Origin: Alphaproteobacteria bacterium
Lineage (GTDB): Bacteria > Pseudomonadota > Alphaproteobacteria > UBA828
DNA length: 64,000 bases
NCBI GenBank assembly: GCA_965237415.1
Contig: CBDEFM010000002.1
Location: forward strand, 3,680,001 to 3,744,000
Direction of reading: 5' to 3'
Under the pieces are notes generated by a model. That model had not been told where the DNA came from. It made no database searches and worked only from the letters and a program-made list of their open reading frames with translations. The first letter of the stretch is position 1; every line of letters starts with the position of its first letter. The position numbers and the translations under genes are program-made. This document shows, piece by piece, positions 1 to 22,863 of this stretch.

Positions 1-205
1 CAGCGAGACCGGCGCCAGGTTCACGGCCATGATGTACTCGGTGGCGGGCACGCTCGCCATGAACGGCATCGATGTTCGGCGCTGGCTCGAGGAATGGCTG
101 TCAGCGTGCGCGAAAAATGGCGGAAAACCGCCGGACGACCTGTCGCCCTGGCTGCCATGGTCGATGAGCGAGGGCCGCAGGCGTGCTCTCGCGGCGCCGG
201 GATGA
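1..205 (+). CDS. IS66-family transposase (TnpC) C-terminus, partial at window edge
   Basis: Frame from nt 2 reads SETGARFTAMMYSVAGTLAMNGIDVRRWLEEWL...DDLSPWLPWSM...APG*, matching the IS66 C-terminal S..GA...YS...T...NG.D...WL...LPW pattern. Stop TGA at 203-205 overlaps the next ATG (ATGA). Confidence 0.8.
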   Translation, partial: SETGARFTAMMYSVAGTLAMNGIDVRRWLEEWLSACAKNGGKPPDDLSPWLPWSMSEGRRRALAAPG

Positions 206-1083
206 CCGGCGAGATCGAGTGCCGCTATTACGGGCGCGAGTTCACCGCCGAAGAGATGGCGCTTCTGCGCGTCCTGGTGGCCGGTCCCGCGCGGCTCACC
301 CGCCATGCCCTGTCGAAGGAGTTTTGCCGGCACATCGGCTGGTTCAGGCCCGACGGCGGGCTCAAGGACATGATGGCCAGGGTCACCATGCTGGCCATGC
401 ACAGGGACGGCCTGATCACCCTGCCGCCGCCCAGGTGGCAGCAGGGCCAGCAAAAGCCGATTGTCTTCGGGCCTGACACCGAAACGCCGCTGTTCCCGGC
501 GCCGACAACCCTCGACGAAGTCCGCCCGCTCGAACTGCGCACCGTCGTGCGCGGCACCCGCGAGGGCAAGCTGTGGAACGAGTTCATCGCCCGCTACCAC
601 TATCTCGGCTACAAGACCCTGGTCGGCGCCCAGATGCGCTACGCCGTCCACGACCGAAACGGCTGGCCGCTCGCCATGCTCGGCTTCAGCACCGCGGCCT
701 GGAAGCTCGCGCCGCGCGACAGCTTCATCGGATGGACACAACAGAAGCGCGAGAAGAACCTCCCCCTCGTGGTCGACAACCCGAGGTTCCTGATCCTGCC
801 CTGGATCAAGATCCCCAATCTCGGCTCGCACATTCTCGCCATCGTCCGCCGCCGCCTGCCCGAGGACTGGACCGAGCGCTACAACACCACCCCCGTGCTC
901 ATCGAGACCTTCGTCCAGACCCCGCGCTTCACCGGCGCTGTCTACAAGGCCTCCGGCTGGATCCGTGTCGGAACCACCCAGGGACGCGGCCGCTACGACA
1001 GGTACAGCAAACGCGACCAGCCGAAGAAGGACATCTGGCTCCGGCCTCTCCGGAGGGATTGGAAGCGAACCCTCAATCGGTAA
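202..1083 (+). CDS. DUF4338 domain protein (Druantia DruA-like)
   Basis: Motifs WNEFIARYHYLGY, GAQMRYAV, RDSFIGW, NPRFLILPW, NLGSHIL, LIETFV, GAVYKASGW, GTTQGRGR. Start reassigned to ATG 202, which overlaps the transposase stop. Confidence 0.85.
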   Translation: MTGEIECRYYGREFTAEEMALLRVLVAGPARLTRHALSKEFCRHIGWFRPDGGLKDMMARVTMLAMHRDGLITLPPPRWQQGQQKPIVFGPDTETPLFPAPTTLDEVRPLELRTVVRGTREGKLWNEFIARYHYLGYKTLVGAQMRYAVHDRNGWPLAMLGFSTAAWKLAPRDSFIGWTQQKREKNLPLVVDNPRFLILPWIKIPNLGSHILAIVRRRLPEDWTERYNTTPVLIETFVQTPRFTGAVYKASGWIRVGTTQGRGRYDRYSKRDQPKKDIWLRPLRRDWKRTLNR

Positions 1084-1248
1084 AATCCCCCGGCCGCCGA
1101 ACGCTTACCCTCGAACCGCTGCCGCCATCTTGATTTCCCCAGCTCATGGCCGGCATACATGTGCCGACTCTGTGTTGACAGTTCGTTTTGGCATGCCAGA
1201 ATGGGAATCGAAAACTCCGAAAACTTCAATGTTTCCGGGTGGTTGAGC

Positions 1249-9002: not shown

Positions 9003-9135
9003 CTAGTCACCTGAATCTGAAGTTCGCCACATAAAGCTAACTATGTTGAACGACTAAATTCTTCGACAATAGAGCGACTTAGTGTGGCAGCACTGCTAAT
9101 CTATAATGATCTCAACTTCAGTGCCAGATGACTAG
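9003..9135. mobile_element. MITE family A, copy 2 (diverged)
   Basis: Same length and TIRs as 1352-1484, with several substitutions. Confidence 0.88.
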
Positions 9136-9920: not shown

Positions 9921-9952
9921 CGCCGGGCGGGCAATCGGTCAAGCCCGTGTCG

Positions 9953-10085
9953 CTAGTCACCTGAATCTGAAGTTCGCCACATAAAGACAACTATATTGCA
10001 CGACCACATTCTTCGACAATAGAGCGACTTAGTGTGACGACACTGCCAATTGAAAATGATCTCAACTTCAGTGTCAGGTGACTAG
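9953..10085. mobile_element. MITE family A, copy 3
   Basis: Identical by eye to copy 1. Interrupts the CTAG in the IS left end. Confidence 0.9.
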
Positions 10086-11500: not shown

Positions 11501-11723
11501 TGTCGCTAGTCACCTGAATCTAAAGTGCGCCACATAAAGACAACTATATTGCACGACCACATTCTTCGACAATAGAGCGACTTAGTGTGACGACACTGCC
11601 AATTGATAATGATCTCAACTTCAGATTCAGGTGACTAGCACATGATGTGTCCGGTTTAGGTAGCACACGAGTTGTCCGGTTTGGTCTCTCCGTGGGGAGG
11701 GACCGCGATGAGCCGGACGACGT
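11501..11723 (+). mobile_element. Truncated second copy of the IS1202-group left end (with MITE A copy 4 inside)
   Basis: 11639-11723 is identical to 10086-10170. Cut a few codons into the transposase by a different MITE. Confidence 0.85.
11506..11638. mobile_element. MITE family A, copy 4
   Basis: 133 bp, CTAG-bounded, about 5 substitutions relative to copy 3. Confidence 0.9.
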
Positions 11724-11817: not shown

Positions 11818-12034
11818 CTAGTGTCCTGATCCAGAAGTTCGTATGCATTGAAGAGGTACCCCTGACACGTCATGGCCGGGCTTGTCCTGGCCATCCACGT
11901 GTTTGCTCGGCGCTCAGCGGATCTTGCTGAGCGAGATGCCCGGAACAAGTCCGGGCATGACAAGAGGAGTGGTGGGGCCGGGGAGACCGCACGGCCAACC
12001 CGAAATCATGCGAACTTCAGAAACTGGACACTAG
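11818..12034. mobile_element. MITE family C (217 bp, CTAG-bounded, related to family A ends)
   Basis: TIR CTAGTGTCC.G.T.C.GAAGTTCG / CGAACTTCAGAAACTGGACACTAG. Shares its right CTAG with MITE A copy 5. Confidence 0.78.
11869..11961. repeat. Alphaproteobacterial REP-like palindromic doublet
   Basis: GTCATGGCCGGGCTTGTCCTGGCCATCC ... GATGCCCGGAACAAGTCCGGGCATGAC inverted pair. Confidence 0.75.
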
Positions 12035-12163
12035 TCACCTGAATCTGAAGTTCGCCACATAAAGACAACTATATTGCACGACCACATTCTTCGACAATAG
12101 AGCGACTTAGTGTGACGACACTGCCAATTGAAAATGATCTCAACTTCAGTGTCAGGTGACTAG
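12031..12163. mobile_element. MITE family A, copy 5
   Basis: Identical by eye to copies 1 and 3. Confidence 0.9.
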
Positions 12164-12193
12164 CAGCATCGGATAGCGAAGCGCGTGGGTGGG

Positions 12194-18908: not shown

Positions 18909-20201
18909 TCACGCGGTCTGGAACTCGTTCCAGCGCTTCACGACCAGGGTGTTCTCGTCCATGATCGAGTTCCACACGCCGACCCGGCCCATGCGGTTGG
19001 CGAACGAGCCGCCGTCGCGGACGTGGCCGGGCTGTTCCATGACGTTGCCGAACGGGTCCTTGACCTCGCCCTCCGCCGGCTTGCCTTCGTACCAGTAGCC
19101 CCACTCCCAGGGCTCCAGATACTTCTTCGTGTTCTCGGGCGTGCAGATGTAGTAGCCCTGCTTGGAGAAGTAGGCGCCGGCGGGGCCCGAGTGGTACCAG
19201 TTGAAGTAGTCGTAGAGCGCGCCGAGCTTCTTGCCTTCGACGTGGCGCGGGATCATCGAGCCGAGCGCCCAGGCGCGGTAGCCTTCCTTCAGGTCGAGAT
19301 AGACGCAGGGCACGCCGCGTGCGCGCACCGCCGCCACCGCCGGCGACCACATGGATTGCAGCACCACCTCACCGGAGGTCATCAGATTGACGGACTCGTT
19401 GAAGGTGCTCCAGAAGGCGCGGAAGTGCCCGTCCTTCTTGAGCTGGATGAGGCGGTCGAAGGTGTAGTTGATCTCCTCGACCGTCATGTTGCCCTTGTCG
19501 CTATAGGTGATCTCGCCGTTGGCTTCGAGCGCCATGGCCATGTCCATGATCCCGATCCCGGGGAAGTTCTGCAGCGCCGTCTTGCCGTTGAACTCGGGAT
19601 TGAGGAACTCGGCCCAGGTCTCGATGGGGCGGCCGATCTTTTCCGGCTGCGCGCCGAGGGTGTCGGCATTGAAGGTGCCGGGCACGATGGTCATCCATTG
19701 GGTGGACTCAGGCTTCACGAAATCGGTGCTTTCGATGTCCGAGGTCCAGCAGTAGCGCGAGGGGTTCATGCCCTGGCCGTACCAGGCGTCGGGCCCGATC
19801 TTGCCGGTCGCCTTGTAGATGCCGAGCAGCGAGTCGAAATGCTCGAGCTTGGTGGTGTCGATCGCCTGCATGGTGCCGAACGGGAACACCTGCGGCCACT
19901 GCTCGAGGTCCGGCTCGAAGAGGTCGGCCGAGCGCGGCTGGGTCATGGCGCGCTGGGCGATGGTGCTGAGATCGACCGCGGTCATGCTGAAGGTGAATCC
20001 CAGCGCCTCCTCGGCCATCGCCTCGTAGGTGCTGGAGATGGTCACGGCCGTGCCGACCATCCTGATCTCGATGTCCTTGATGTCCTGCGCCCAGACGGTC
20101 GGGAAGCCGACGACGCTCGCGCCCGCCGCCGCGCCGAACGCGGCCGCGCTGCCCTTCAGGACGCTCCGTCGGCTGATGCGTGTCTCTCTGGGATCCACCA
20201 T
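18909..20201 (-). CDS. ABC transporter substrate-binding protein, Tat-exported, paralog of 15581-16882
   Basis: SRRSVLKG signal. Long blocks shared with the first binding protein (GFPTVWAQDIKDIEI, GHFRAFW.TFNESVNLM). Confidence 0.88.
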   Translation of the reverse strand: MVDPRETRISRRSVLKGSAAAFGAAAGASVVGFPTVWAQDIKDIEIRMVGTAVTISSTYEAMAEEALGFTFSMTAVDLSTIAQRAMTQPRSADLFEPDLEQWPQVFPFGTMQAIDTTKLEHFDSLLGIYKATGKIGPDAWYGQGMNPSRYCWTSDIESTDFVKPESTQWMTIVPGTFNADTLGAQPEKIGRPIETWAEFLNPEFNGKTALQNFPGIGIMDMAMALEANGEITYSDKGNMTVEEINYTFDRLIQLKKDGHFRAFWSTFNESVNLMTSGEVVLQSMWSPAVAAVRARGVPCVYLDLKEGYRAWALGSMIPRHVEGKKLGALYDYFNWYHSGPAGAYFSKQGYYICTPENTKKYLEPWEWGYWYEGKPAEGEVKDPFGNVMEQPGHVRDGGSFANRMGRVGVWNSIMDENTLVVKRWNEFQTA

Positions 20202-20427
20202 GACTCTGCTCCTTGGCTGTGACCGTAGCGCCGCGCCCCGCGCGGCCTCGTCCGGGAAACTCGCCCCTGTTACCCAAGCTCGGCGAGCTTCCCACCGAAG
20301 TCCCGTGTCTCGTCCAACTATATCTTCGGTCCCGTCGCAACGATAGGCGCCACTTCCGCCGATCCGGTGGCCAAGTGACCAACCACGCCTCGCCGGCGCA
20401 CTTACGCCACCGCTTCCCGGCTTCACC

Positions 20428-20451
20428 AGGGGCGTCCACCCCATCGCTTAC
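20428..20451. repeat. IS1111 left end / IS66 terminus junction scar (24-bp repeat of 22287-22310)
   Basis: AGGGGCGTCCACCCCATCGCTTAC occurs identically at both positions. Confidence 0.85.
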
Positions 20452-20521
20452 GAACGTTCACGGTAAGTGTTCGTTCAGGCCGTGGAATCAGCGCGGGCGT
20501 TTCAATCCGCCCCGGCGGATT

Positions 20522-20765
20522 TTAACGATTGAGGGTGCGTTTCCAGTCCCGTCGCAGGGGCCGGAGCCAGACATCCTTTTTCGGCTTGTCGTACTGCCTG
20601 TCCCGGTCGTAGCGCCCGCGCCCTTGGGTGGCGCCGACATGGATCCAGCCCGATGCCCTGTAGACCGCGCCGGTATATCGCGGGGTCTCTACGAAAGTCT
20701 CGATGAGCACCGGCGTGGTGTTGTAGCGCTCGGTCCAGTCCTCGGGCAGGCGCCGGCGGATGCCC
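20522..20765 (-). pseudogene. DUF4338 C-terminal fragment
   Basis: IRRRLPEDWTERYNTTPVLIETFVETPRYTGAVYRASGW...KRTLNR is near-identical to the end of 202-1083. Confidence 0.88.
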
Positions 20766-20944
20766 TCGACCAGCGTCAGGTCGGTGCCAAAATCCTCGTC
20801 CAGAACCGCCATGCGCACGACGATAGCGCATGGCAAATTGCGTTACCAGCAGAAAGACAGCCCCTTGTGGGGCTTCGCCTCAACGTGGGAGATGCGCTTG
20901 ACGGCACCCATTCCACGGCCTGAACGAACGTGTGTGGACGCCCC

Positions 20945-21190
20945 CGTTGATGCAAGCAGTTTTTGGTCGGCTCGGTGCATGCGGTCAGGTGCTGTCGTGT
21001 GTCCGGCCTCTCTATGCGGCAGATGACACGCCGCGGGCCCGTATGGAGATGCGCGGATTGGGTCCAAATCGCTTACGCGAGCTTGAAAGCTCTCCGTTCG
21101 GATGCTGGTTTTCCCGACCCGGTCTCGTTGACCTTTGCCCTTACCTGTCCTCCGTCCTGCCCACATCCCCGACGGCTTCCCGCACTTCGC
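20945..21190 (-). ncRNA. Predicted seekRNA/bridge RNA region of the IS1111 element (boundaries approximate)
   Basis: 3' non-coding region with target-matching segments (21070-21076, 21095-21101) around a hairpin and donor-matching segments (20996-21002, 21040-21046) around a second hairpin. Confidence 0.75.
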
Positions 21191-21197
21191 CGTTCTC

Positions 21198-22220
21198 TCA
21201 GGCGGCGGCGGGAGCCCGGTAGCTCTCCTTCGTCGTCAGTAGCGCCCAGACGATGCGCGCCATCCTGTTGGCCAGCACCACCGCGACGAGCATCCTCGGC
21301 TTGCGCGCCAGCATCCCGGCCAGCCAGGGGTCCGTCGTTACGCCGCGCCGAACCGCCCAGCGGACGACAGTCATCGCGCCCGTGATCAAGAGCCGTCTCA
21401 AATCGCGCTGGCCCATCTTCGATATCTTGCCCAGCTTCGGCTTGCCGCCCGTCGTGTGCTGGCGCGGCACGAGGCCGAGCCAAGCGGAGAAGTCGCGACC
21501 GCGCCGGAAACTCTCCATCGGCGGTGCGAAGGCCTGGATCGCCATCGCGCTGATCGGCCCGATCCCCGGCACGCTCATCAGGCGCCTTGCCTCCTCATCC
21601 TGCCGTGCACTCACGTGGATCTCCCTCTCCAGGCCCGCAATCTTCGCATCGAGGCCGGCGATTTGCTCAAGCAGAAGGCCGCCCAGCTCGCGGACCGCTT
21701 CCGGCAACCCCGAAGCCGGTCCCTCAAGCGCCGAGGCCAGCCGGCCGACATGAGCCGGCGCCTGCGGGGCAACGATACCGAACTCCGCCAAATGGCCGCG
21801 CAGCGCATTAATCGTCTGGGTGCGCTGGCGCACCAGAAGATCGCGCGTCCGGAACAGCATGCCCCGAGCCTGCTGTTCCTCCGTCTTCACAGCTACAAAG
21901 CGCATGGTCGGCCGCGACGACGCCTCGCAGATCGCCTCCGCGTCCGACGCGTCGTTCTTTTGCCGCTTCACATACGCTTTGACGTAGATCGGCGGGACCA
22001 GTCGCACCGCATGACCGAGACTGCCGATCTCCCGGCCCCAATGGTGCGCGCCACCGCACGCCTCCATCGCCACCGTGCAGCGTGGCTGCGCAGCCACAAA
22101 GTCCAACAACTTCGCCCGGCTCACCTTCTTGCGGAACGCTACCGACCCGTCCGCCCGCGCACCGTGCAGCTGAAAGCTGTTCTTCGCCAGATCGATCCCG
22201 ATCATGTTAACCTGTCCCAT
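21198..22220 (-). CDS. IS110-family (IS1111) DEDD recombinase/transposase
   Basis: IGIDLAK, MEACGGAHHW, KNDASDAEAI, SVPGIGPISA, WLGLVPRQHTTGGK..LGKISKMG, ANRMAR. Confidence 0.95.
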   Translation of the reverse strand: MGQVNMIGIDLAKNSFQLHGARADGSVAFRKKVSRAKLLDFVAAQPRCTVAMEACGGAHHWGREIGSLGHAVRLVPPIYVKAYVKRQKNDASDAEAICEASSRPTMRFVAVKTEEQQARGMLFRTRDLLVRQRTQTINALRGHLAEFGIVAPQAPAHVGRLASALEGPASGLPEAVRELGGLLLEQIAGLDAKIAGLEREIHVSARQDEEARRLMSVPGIGPISAMAIQAFAPPMESFRRGRDFSAWLGLVPRQHTTGGKPKLGKISKMGQRDLRRLLITGAMTVVRWAVRRGVTTDPWLAGMLARKPRMLVAVVLANRMARIVWALLTTKESYRAPAAA

Positions 22221-22863
22221 GGACGCCCCCTTCCTCGCTTGGTGTTTAACAACACCGCCAACCTGGCACATCGCGATGCCGTCGGGAGGGGCGTCCACCC
22301 CATCGCTTACCCGTGACGCGATGGCGGAATCGCGGCTCGGTCGGGCGGCGGGACAAGTGCGGACGCGCGGGGCCGTATGTTGGATTCAATCCGGTTACGT
22401 TATGAAGACGGGATACGGGCGGGGGTAAACAGCAGAATTTTGAGAGGACTGATTAATTTTTGAATTACAATCGATTAGAATTGCAACATGCGTAGGAACC
22501 TTCAATATTGCGGCACAAGATTGGCAAACACTGAGAATCGAAGCGACGCGCGCGTCTGACGGCCCTTGGCAACGGCGTCGCCCGGAGGTGCCGGGGCGCG
22601 GAGACGAGAGCCAACGAGGGGCCTTCGTCGGCCGCCGTGCTCGTGAGCGGGGAGACGGCATAGCACGAGCAAGCGGGGTCGCGACTGTCGGCTGACTGAA
22701 CAGGTGTGAGCGGCGCGGCGAGGTCCTCCGGCCCAGCCCCCTGCGGCGAGGCCAGCGGTGCAAGTGGTCTTATCCGATCGATCTCGGACGGCCGGAGGAG
22801 CGCGCATTCGACGGAGTTTGAGAGGCGGCGGCAGTCATGAAGCCGGCGCCCTCAAGAGATAAA

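What the first reader, a model, noticed from the sequence alone, without database searches (positions are those of the whole stretch)
20910..22310. IS1111 element whose seek/bridge RNA guides appear programmed against the IS66 terminal inverted repeat
Seen: removing 20931-22303 and one CG restores TGAACGAA-CG-CTTAC, a complete IS66-type end, so the IS sits inside the TIR at a CG core. Its 3' non-coding region reads on the element strand CCGAACG-[GAGAGC UUUCAA GCUCGC hairpin]-GUAAGCG (21101-21070). These are the left target half on the top strand and the right half on the bottom strand, each ending in the CG core. A second loop carries CGTGTGT (20996-21002) and CGtATGG (21040-21046), matching the predicted circle junction CCCCAT-CG-TGTGT (the second with a 1-nt bulge). 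Known: IS110/IS1111 elements use bridge/seekRNAs with target and donor guides, and IS4321/IS5075 target Tn21-type TIRs. Inference: this is a natural RNA-guided recombinase with a CG core that parasitises and probably immobilises an IS66 subfamily. I cannot tell whether this pairing has been described.
Basis: partly seen in the sequence, partly recalled or inferred. Interest (0 to 1): 0.9.

Follow-up and report, generated by a model that had tools for sequence, protein, structure and literature searches.

The report
IS1111 element inside an IS66 end
An intact RNA-guided insertion sequence of the IS1111 group sits inside the terminal repeat of a small IS66-family remnant, and its guide RNA segments match that repeat; this is a new target for a mechanism already described in 2024, not a new mechanism.

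Summary
Window 20931-22303 (minus strand) is a complete IS1111-group element. It has a 340-aa DEDD transposase, 11-bp subterminal inverted repeats with 7/3-bp extensions, and a 267-bp non-coding region downstream of the gene. It lies between two CG dinucleotides, 5 bp inside the terminal repeat of a 475-bp internally deleted IS66 derivative, not a full IS66.

Across 40 related elements with distinct guide pairs, both segments change with the flanking DNA (mean runs 6.5 and 6.6 nt; shuffled pairings 2.9 and 3.2). The 3' donor guide holds the element's last 4 nt plus core in 34 of 36 elements.

The junction of IS66 tip and IS1111 end recurs in 6 of 49 genomes of the order. IS66-targeting elements sit at several separate places on the transposase tree.

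In this genome, seven other matching IS66 ends are empty. Transcription, current activity and immobilisation of IS66 are not shown.

The mechanism (seekRNA/bridge RNA) and targeting of transposon terminal repeats (IS4321/IS5075) are both known. Verdict: a new member of a known kind, of moderate interest.

The parts
20931..22303 (-). IS1111-group insertion sequence, 1373 bp without the flanking CG cores. By the Partridge/Hall convention, one CG belongs to the element.
   Evidence: Ends were defined by the subterminal repeats and by comparison with 67 anchored relatives. It is the only full copy of this species in the genome.
21198..22220 (-). Transposase gene, 340 aa, with no internal stop codon
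   Evidence: Pfam PF01548 (DEDD_Tnp_IS110, E 1e-15) and PF02371 (E 4.5e-22). Translation. Homologous to the solved ISCro4 (9t56) and IS621 (8wt6) transposases; the GID, MEA, DASDA and SVPGIG motifs are visible in the alignment. 95% identical proteins occur in three other genomes.
22288..22298 (.). Left subterminal inverted repeat (GGGGCGTCCAC on the + strand). The terminal extension runs 22299-22303, then the CG core.
20934..20944 (.). Right subterminal inverted repeat (GTGGACGCCCC on the + strand), preceded by a 3-bp extension at 20931-20933
22304..22305 (.). CG core at the left junction (element orientation)
   Evidence: The same dinucleotide flanks both ends in nearly all of the 67 relatives with both ends anchored; most are CG, a minority TG.
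20929..20930 (.). CG core at the right junction
20983..21120 (-). Predicted seekRNA/bridge RNA region: the conserved scaffold carrying four variable guide blocks. Its ends are approximate and were not measured.
   Evidence: Alignment of 36 relatives. The consensus fold has 23 pairs, 12 of them with compensatory changes. There is no Rfam match.
21095..21101 (-). 5' target guide CCGAACG (RTG-like). [quoted passage not shown]
21077..21094 (-). Apical hairpin between the two target guides. The 4-bp stem is GAGC/GCUC.
   Evidence: Pair 43/59 of alignment A1 is AU in 14, GC in 11 and UA in 7 of 36 sequences.
21070..21076 (-). 3' target guide GUAAGCG (LTG-like). It is identical to the top strand of the left target half, so it pairs with the bottom strand.
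21055..21062 (-). 3' strand of the base stem that closes the target loop. It pairs with 21113-21120.
   Evidence: columns 14-21 with 78-85. Copy A has one C.A mismatch in this stem.
21043..21048 (-). 5' donor guide CUCCAU (RDG-like). It pairs with the left end ATGGGG, using one G.U pair.
   Evidence: CCAU is invariant; the covariation is partial.
21005..21039 (-). Conserved stem-loop (GGCC/GGCC plus GCGGC/GCCGC) lying between the two donor guides
20995..21002 (-). 3' donor guide ACACACGA (LDG-like). It equals the last 5 nt of the element, the CG core and the first nt of the left end, which is the predicted circle junction.
   Evidence: The block holds the last 4 nt of the right end plus the core in 34 of 36 relatives, covering 10 different right-end-plus-core types.
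20463..20930 (.). Body of the internally deleted IS66-family derivative. With 22304-22310 it makes 475 bp. Its terminal repeats agree at 26 of 27 positions.
   Evidence: Positions 62-311 and 312-399 of the blast query (window 20452-20930) match the two ends of full IS66 copies at 80-88% identity. Those copies carry PF03050. Terminal repeats.
22306..22310 (.). The 5-bp tip (CTTAC, which is GTAAG on the other strand) of the IS66 terminal repeat, cut off from the rest by the insertion
20429..20451 (-). Remnant of a second insertion of the same kind: 16 bp of the IS1111 left end joined to another GTAAGCG tip

Best explanation
This is an intact IS1111-group (IS110-family) insertion sequence. Its DEDD/serine recombinase is directed by an RNA made from the 267-bp non-coding region downstream of the gene.

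Target recognition. One loop of that RNA carries two short guides on either side of a small hairpin.
[quoted passage not shown] - The two overlap at a CG core.
Together they spell the first 12 nt of an IS66-family terminal inverted repeat. The circular form of the element therefore recombines into that repeat 5 bp from its tip, always pointing inward.

Donor recognition. Two further blocks flank a second stem-loop and recognise the element's own joined ends. These are CUCCAU and ACACACGA.

What is shown and what is inferred. Shown by sequence comparison: the position of the insertion, the guide-target and guide-donor matches, and their covariation. Inferred from the published family mechanism: that the RNA is made, binds the recombinase, and still drives transposition of this copy. 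Inferred only: that the insertion disables that end of the IS66 element.
For: Family membership.
- Pfam PF01548 and PF02371, and homology to the ISCro4 and IS621 transposases.
- 11-bp subterminal repeats with 7/3-bp extensions, and the non-coding region downstream of the gene. These are the features named in the introduction of PMC11187229 (passage).

Guides within this genome. Three sibling species have different guides that match their different flanks.
- A: GUAAGCG and CCGAACG, with flanks GTAAGCG|CGTTCG.
- B: AUAAGCG and GCGCG, with flanks TTAAGCG|CGCGC.
- C: AGACUCG and CCGUCCU, with flanks AGACTCG|CG-AGGGCGG.

Guides across the family.
- 40 distinct guide pairs give mean longest runs of 6.47 and 6.60 nt, against 2.93 and 3.16 for shuffled pairings. 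No shuffle out of 1000 exceeded 3.64.
- Runs of 6 nt or more occur in 31 of 40 (3' guide) and 28 of 40 (5' guide).

A single-base compensation. L015 is 95% identical in protein. It has guide GUAACCG at a GTAACCG site.

Reprogramming on the same protein. L013, also 95% identical, carries guides GCAAACG and UUUUGACCG and sits at GGGCAAA-CG-GTCAA. Specificity therefore follows the RNA region, not the protein.

Donor guide. It contains the last 4 nt of the right end plus the core in 34 of 36 elements.

Structure. The variable blocks lie in a loop closed by stems. 12 of 23 pairs show compensatory changes.

Order of the guides. The top-strand match is 5' of the bottom-strand match and they overlap in the target, as reported for IS1111 seekRNAs (PMC11187229 section 9). 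The strand rules match those of the bridge RNA paper (PMC11208160 passages).

The target is an IS66 end.
- The interior is homologous to elements that carry PF03050.
- IS66-like proteins lie next to L018 and L025.
- The same junction occurs in 6 of 49 genomes of the order, with 0 hits for the reversed-pattern control.
- In those relatives the 5' guide differs and follows the local repeat.
Against: - No direct evidence of the RNA. Contigs from RNA libraries cover the non-coding region, but such libraries can contain DNA, and contigs show neither ends nor strand.
- In the four runs laid, no contig joined the empty site or the circle junction.
- There is only one full copy in the genome.
- Six terminal repeats match both guides perfectly (7+7) and one repeat is identical to the occupied site. 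All seven are empty.
- The 5' guide has a mismatch to the occupied site at its outermost position.
- The single-sequence fold of this copy is no more stable than shuffled sequence (z 0.16). The structure rests on the alignment.
- No closing stem for the donor guides was found.
- No 8-bp target duplication flanks the IS66 derivative: CGTTCACG on one side, CCGTGACG on the other.
- Occupancy counts depend on a correct assembly of repeats.
Confidence: 0.85

Rival explanations
1. The copy is a fossil. It inserted by the RNA-guided route in the past and no longer moves, so the guide match records history rather than present function.
For: - A single full copy plus one 16-bp remnant.
- Seven matching IS66 ends are unoccupied.
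- No empty-site or circle joints in the four runs laid.
- One C.A mismatch in the base stem of the target loop in this copy.
Against: - The reading frame is open over 340 aa and both Pfam domains and conserved motifs are present.
- Both subterminal repeats are perfect.
- All four guide blocks are intact and fit the site.
- L015 has the same donor guide and right end, and its target guides differ by one base.
- Low copy number is common for these elements, according to the survey in PMC11187229 section 13.
Confidence: 0.3
2. The site is chosen by the recombinase protein recognising the IS66 repeat. The matching RNA-strand segments are not what selects it.
For: No RNA was observed here. The published systems are distant relatives: phmmer E 3e-12 and 2e-9, matching mainly the C-terminal half.
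Against: - Proteins 95% identical to this one (L013, L015) sit at different sites, and their guide blocks differ in step with those sites.
- Guide-flank covariation across 40 guide pairs.
- Experiments in the family showed the RNA is essential and reprogrammable (PMC11187229 abstract).
Confidence: 0.05
3. The short matches between the non-coding region and the flanks arose by chance in a GC-rich sequence.
For: Each match is only 6-8 nt long.
Against: - Shuffled pairings never approach the observed values (0 of 1000).
- The matches lie in the same alignment columns in all relatives.
- The exact 12-mer is expected 0.56 times in the genome. It occurs 6 times, and all 6 are IS66 terminal repeats.
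Confidence: 0.02

Closest known systems
[quoted passage not shown]
   Same: Same group. Both have subterminal inverted repeats with asymmetric extensions and insert in one orientation at a fixed position inside another transposon's terminal repeat. The known case was seen only as the title of Partridge and Hall 2003, cited; that paper itself is not held.
   Different: The host element here is an IS66-family insertion sequence, not a Tn3/Tn21-family transposon. The target sequence and guides differ. No experimental data exist for this element.
ISEc11, ISKpn4, ISPa11, ISPst6 seekRNAs (Siddiquee et al. 2024, PMC11187229)
   Same: The non-coding region lies downstream of the transposase gene. Two short matches, the top-strand match 5' of the bottom-strand match, overlap in the target (section 9).
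   Different: Those RNAs were purified with the transposase and reprogrammed experimentally. Here the RNA is inferred. Their targets, as I recall them, are attC sites, REP elements and others; no IS66 target is mentioned in the main text ('IS66' occurs 0 times).
IS621 bridge RNA (Durrant et al. 2024, PMC11208160) and the solved IS621 and ISCro4 complexes (8wt6, 9t56)
   Same: Same protein domains. Each guide set has a left part pairing with the bottom strand and a right part pairing with the top strand, and a core dinucleotide is shared by target and donor. The protein is homologous.
   Different: - The RNA is encoded in the right end rather than the left end, and the order of the guides is reversed.
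- The core is CG (TG in some relatives). IS621's core is CT as I recall; I did not check this.
- The donor guides flank a stem-loop instead of lying in a simple internal loop. The paper notes this for many IS1111 members.
- The right donor guide does not appear to pair with the core.

Membership tests
IS1111 group of the IS110 family | DEDD (RuvC-like) N-terminal domain plus C-terminal Tnp domain | tested here: met
   PF01548 at 58.3 bits (cut-off 29) and PF02371 at 78.7 bits (cut-off 21.3). The alignment to ISCro4 shows the GID, MEA, DASDA and SVPGIG motifs. Which residues are catalytic is recalled, not tested.
IS1111 group of the IS110 family | Subterminal inverted repeats of about 11-13 bp, with extensions of 7 bp (left) and 3 bp (right) | tested here: met
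   GTGGACGCCCC/GGGGCGTCCAC is a perfect 11-bp repeat. The extensions are CGATGGG on the left and ACA on the right. The rule is quoted from the PMC11187229 introduction.
IS1111 group of the IS110 family | The long non-coding region lies downstream of the transposase gene | tested here: met
   267 bp after the stop codon (21197-20931) against 83 bp before the start codon (22221-22303).
IS1111 group of the IS110 family | Site-specific insertion with no target duplication beyond the shared core | tested here: met
   Only CG is repeated at the two junctions. An uninterrupted copy of the same repeat lies at C1:647213.
seekRNA / bridge RNA-guided recombination | Target guides that covary with the flanking DNA | tested here: met
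seekRNA / bridge RNA-guided recombination | Donor guides that covary with the element's ends | tested here: met
   The 3' donor block matches in 34 of 36 elements. The 5' block covaries only partly.
seekRNA / bridge RNA-guided recombination | Guides presented in loops of a conserved RNA fold | tested here: inconclusive
   The target loop is well supported: base and apical stems show compensatory changes. The donor guides flank a conserved stem-loop, but no closing helix was found. Copy A folded alone gives z 0.16. There is no Rfam family.
seekRNA / bridge RNA-guided recombination | The RNA is expressed, binds the recombinase and is required for transposition | not testable with these tools
   Only contigs from RNA libraries cover the region. 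They prove neither transcription nor its ends.
IS66 family (the host element) | Homology to elements that encode a DDE_Tnp_IS66 transposase | tested here: met
   The interior matches the ends of full copies at 80-88% identity. Those copies carry PF03050 (189.8 bits). The derivative itself has no transposase gene.
IS66 family (the host element) | Terminal inverted repeats beginning GTAAGCG (this motif is recalled from ISfinder descriptions) | tested here: met
   The two ends read GTAAG[T/C]GTTCGTTCAGGCCGTGGAAT. Full IS66 copies in this genome begin GTAAGCG or GTAAAGG.
IS66 family (the host element) | 8-bp target-site duplication (recalled) | tested here: not met
   The flanks are CGTTCACG and CCGTGACG. 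Two full copies of another IS66 species do show 8-bp duplications. The derivative has probably been rearranged.

The most novel reading that the evidence does not exclude
A set of IS1111 elements has repeatedly become specialised, through guide mutation or exchange of the non-coding module, to home into the conserved GTAAGCG tip of IS66-family terminal repeats. The left guide stays fixed, and the right guide follows the repeat variant of each IS66 subfamily. A sibling with a 95% identical recombinase instead homes into the non-coding region of other IS1111 elements. On this reading the locus is one instance of RNA-guided conflict between transposons, in which the insertion disables an end of the host element.
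Probability: 0.4. Interest if true: 0.55.

Novelty: new member of a known kind. Interest (0 to 1): 0.38.

Why it matters
The locus gives a clean natural example of how RNA-guided recombinases of the IS1111 group are retargeted.
- Recombinases 95% identical to each other are found with three guide sets at three kinds of site.
- One of those pairs differs by a single compensated base.
- The alignment of about 40 guide sets with their sites could help define guide length, register, the tolerated G.U pairs and core choice (CG, TG) for this subfamily. That is useful to people engineering these enzymes.

Biologically, it adds IS66-family ends to the list of mobile-element ends used as safe landing sites. 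That list already holds Tn21-family repeats, attC sites and REP elements. It also raises a testable idea: one insertion sequence can cripple another.

It does not reveal a new mechanism.

Tried and rejected
Rfam. A scan of 20500-22700 at E up to 1 found no family.

Neighbouring ORFs. Pfam shows the 511-aa ORF is a solute-binding protein, and the 109-aa ORF has no hit. The host is a deletion derivative.

Finding ends. A generic inverted-repeat finder gave inconsistent registers. I replaced it with motif anchors. Of the 80 loci, 13 had no anchor on one side and were left out.

Rows dropped before the counts.
- After a length filter (1340-1425 bp) and removal of duplicates, 58 rows were aligned.
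- For one search I also dropped L019, L027 and L050 (mis-anchored) and three loci without 12 nt of flank. That left 52 elements and 40 distinct guide pairs.
- A fixed-register score for the 5' guide failed for many rows, because the spacer to the hairpin varies by 1 nt. I replaced it with a register-free longest-run score, using the same procedure for the shuffles.

Do the sibling elements also target insertion-sequence ends? Not in general.
- B lies 307 bp from an IS630-type element, inside a repeat of about 100 bp.
- C lies 140 bp inside the end of an IS21-family element.

Sequencing runs. 24 runs were listed, none holding half of the sampled words. Contigs of three RNA libraries (two studies) and one other run were laid.
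- They cover the non-coding region. Records run 20983-21270, 20983-21134 and 21013-21124, with 2-4 differences each.
- They also cover the left junction (22276-22437, 0 differences).
- No joint across the empty site or the circle junction was listed.
- Two RNA-library contigs of one study stop at 20983, where conservation among relatives ends. Contig breaks at conserved/variable boundaries are expected in mixed samples, so I draw no conclusion about an RNA end.
- Parts without cover mean nothing.

Literature. Searches for IS1111 with IS66; IS110, IS66 and terminal inverted repeat; IS110 family, IS66 and 'inserted into'; and bridge RNA with IS66 listed no paper whose title or abstract start describes an IS1111 element in an IS66 repeat. 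I read only those listings. The seekRNA paper's main text has 0 occurrences of 'IS66'. ISfinder and the supplementary tables of PMC11187229 and PMC11208160 may already hold such a target. Partridge and Hall 2003 is not held.
Full report
What is there. Window 20931-22303 holds a 1373-bp element with its gene on the minus strand. The gene (22220 to 21198, 340 aa, open) has both domains of IS110-family transposases: PF01548 at 58.3 bits and PF02371 at 78.7 bits. It is homologous to the solved ISCro4 and IS621 transposases, and the GID, MEA, DASDA and SVPGIG motifs are visible. In element orientation the ends read CG|ATGGG-GTGGACGCCCC ... GGGGCGTCCAC-ACA|CG. That is a perfect 11-bp subterminal inverted repeat with a 7-bp left extension (counting one CG) and a 3-bp right extension. 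There are 267 non-coding bp after the gene and 83 bp before it. These are the features that separate the IS1111 group from the IS110 group (PMC11187229 introduction passage; PMC11208160 passages).

Where it sits. The flanks are GTAAG-CG on the left and CG-TTCGTTCAGGCCGTGGAAT on the right. With the element and one CG removed, the sequence equals an uninterrupted terminal repeat at C1:647213. It is also the inverted partner, at 26 of 27 positions, of GTAAGTGTTCGTTCAGGCCGTGGAAT at window 20463. The two repeats enclose only 475 bp. That interior matches the two ends of full-length elements elsewhere in the genome at 80-88% identity. Those elements encode a 796-aa protein with the IS66 DDE domain (189.8 bits). 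So the host is an internally deleted IS66 derivative. The neighbouring 511-aa ORF, which might be taken for an IS66 transposase, is a solute-binding protein. No 8-bp duplication flanks the derivative. Eleven bp to its left lies a second GTAAGCG tip joined to the first 16 bp of the same IS1111 left end, after which the sequence is unrelated (window 20429-20451). This is the remnant of a second insertion of the same kind.

The guides. GUAAGCG is identical to the top strand of the left half-site. [quoted passage not shown] The two overlap at CG. The order (top-strand match 5' of bottom-strand match, overlapping in the target) is the one reported for IS1111 seekRNAs (PMC11187229 section 9). The strand rules are those of the bridge RNA target loop (PMC11208160).

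Test by natural variation. The genome holds two sibling species: B at 84% DNA identity and C at 79% in three full copies. Their blocks at the same positions differ and match their own flanks.

I then fetched 80 loci encoding relatives of the transposase (57-95% identity). Both ends could be anchored in 67 of them. After a length filter and removal of duplicates, 58 non-coding regions were aligned. The alignment shows a conserved scaffold with variable blocks exactly at the two sides of the hairpin.

For 40 distinct guide pairs, the longest exact run between the 3' block and the left flank averages 6.47 nt. The run between the reverse complement of the 5' block and the right flank averages 6.60 nt. 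Randomly re-paired guides and flanks give 2.93 and 3.16, and never more than 3.50 and 3.64 in 1000 shuffles. Runs of at least 6 nt occur in 31 of 40 and 28 of 40. The misses include elements whose flanks differ from the guide by one or two bases and some with unclear ends.

Two cases are especially telling. L015 has a protein 95% identical to this one, carries GUAACCG, and sits at GTAACCG. L013 is also 95% identical. It carries GCAAACG and UUUUGACCG and sits at GGGCAAA-CG-GTCAA, a conserved segment of the non-coding region of other IS1111 elements. Site choice therefore follows the RNA-coding region and not the protein.

Donor side. The block ACACACGA (21002 to 20995) equals the last 5 nt of the element, the core and the first nt of the left end. 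That is the expected circle junction. In 34 of 36 aligned relatives this block contains the last 4 nt of the right end plus the core, over 10 different such 6-mers, including TG-core elements. The two exceptions have CA at the right-hand core position while the guide says CG. The other donor block is CUCCAU (21048 to 21043). CCAU is invariant and matches the left end ATGG. I read this guide as pairing with ATGGRG only.

Structure. RNAalifold on 36 sequences places both target blocks in a loop. The loop is closed below by an 8-bp stem plus a CC/GG pair and above by a 4-bp stem. 12 of 23 predicted pairs show compensatory changes; for example one apical pair is AU in 14, GC in 11 and UA in 7 sequences. 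The donor blocks flank a conserved two-part stem-loop, and no closing helix was predicted. [quoted passage not shown] The single sequence of this copy folds no better than shuffles (z 0.16), and no Rfam family matches.

Is IS66 really the target class? Elements with GUAAGCG or GUAACCG as the 3' guide and a GTAA(G/C)CG left flank are A, L015, L017-L018 and L024-L025. L020 has the guide with a 6-of-7 flank. IS66-like proteins lie just inside the right flank of L018 and L025. None was found within about 2.2 kb for L015, L017 or L024.

A pattern scan of all 49 genomes held for the order found the junction of GTAA(G/C)CG with the IS1111 left end in 6 genomes, counting this one. There were 10 junctions in all and 0 for the reversed-pattern control. 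In three of those loci the full element is present. Their right flanks read CGTCCGG, CATCCGG and CGTTCCG, and their 5' guide is CCGGAUG or UCGGAUG rather than CCGAACG.

On a transposase tree of 41 rows, the IS66-targeting elements fall in at least three separate well-supported places: A with L015; L017 with L097, L099 and L103; and L024. L013 is sister to A and L015. The rows are representatives I chose and near-duplicates were left out, so the tree does not say whether guides were exchanged or evolved in place.

What argues for caution. In this genome the exact 12-mer specified by both guides occurs six times against 0.56 expected. All six are the ends of three tandem IS66 copies just upstream of the window, and all are empty. 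So is the one repeat identical to the occupied site. There is one full copy only. Contigs of three RNA libraries (two studies) cover the non-coding region with 2-4 differences, and one covers the left junction without a difference. Such contigs do not prove transcription, and no contig joined the empty site or the circle junction. That the insertion stops the IS66 derivative from moving is plausible, because it separates the 5-bp tip from the rest of the repeat. It is untested, and this derivative has no transposase of its own anyway.

Comparison and verdict. The element is a member of the IS1111 group by every sequence feature I could test. It works, as far as sequence can show, like the published seekRNA/bridge RNA systems. 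Insertion into another transposon's terminal repeat is known for IS4321/IS5075. What may be new is the host family (IS66), the CG core with a TG variant in relatives, and the natural series of retargeted siblings. Four literature searches found no report of an IS1111 element in an IS66 repeat. However, ISfinder, Partridge and Hall 2003 and the supplementary target tables of the two 2024 papers could not be consulted. I file it as a new member of a known kind, of moderate interest.

Noticed in passing
window 20429-20451: A solo remnant: 16 bp of the same IS1111 left end joined to a second GTAAGCG tip, 11 bp from the IS66 derivative. After it the sequence is unrelated. The first ATG of the listed solute-binding-protein ORF (18909-20444) lies inside this remnant, so that start codon is probably wrong.
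   Followed up: partly
G000:C2:3670935-3681108 (last part = window 1-1108); locus L093: Three tandem copies of a 3.4-kb IS66-family element, separated by 17 bp. Each encodes a 796-aa protein with the IS66 DDE domain and a 329-aa protein with a DruA (Druantia) domain, PF14236, E 6e-41. The 250-bp interior of the small derivative in the window corresponds to the end of that DruA-like gene.
   Followed up: partly
L013:2400-3800: An IS1111 element whose transposase is 95% identical to the window's. It has different guides and is inserted in the non-coding region of another IS1111 element, at GGGCAAA-CG-GTCAA. This is one insertion sequence homing into a sibling.
   Followed up: partly
L024, L025, L063 right junctions; L099: At the right junction the core reads CA, while the left junction and the guides read CG. 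In L097/L099-type elements the 5' guide ends in UG, which could pair with either CA or CG. This may reflect tolerated G.U pairing at the core.
   Followed up: no
G000:C2:1800799-1802175, 98765-100141, 2245608-2246984, and a truncated copy at 3418334-3419089; locus L095: Sibling species C lies 140 bp inside one end of an IS21-family element (IstA-like and IstB genes). Its flanks are identical in all copies for at least 1423 bp on one side and 139-140 bp on the other. Its copy number may therefore come from movement of the IS21 element rather than its own.
   Followed up: partly
G000:C2:3660211-3661591; locus L094: Sibling species B sits at the start of a repeat of about 100 bp, which has five uninterrupted copies elsewhere in the genome. 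It is 307 bp from an IS630-type element (DDE_3).
   Followed up: partly
window about 1352-1484, 9003-9135, 9950-10085, 11503-11638, 12031-12169: A repeat of about 134 bp with more than 40 copies in the genome (84-100% identity). It turned up as blast hits while I was studying copy B's flank.
   Followed up: no
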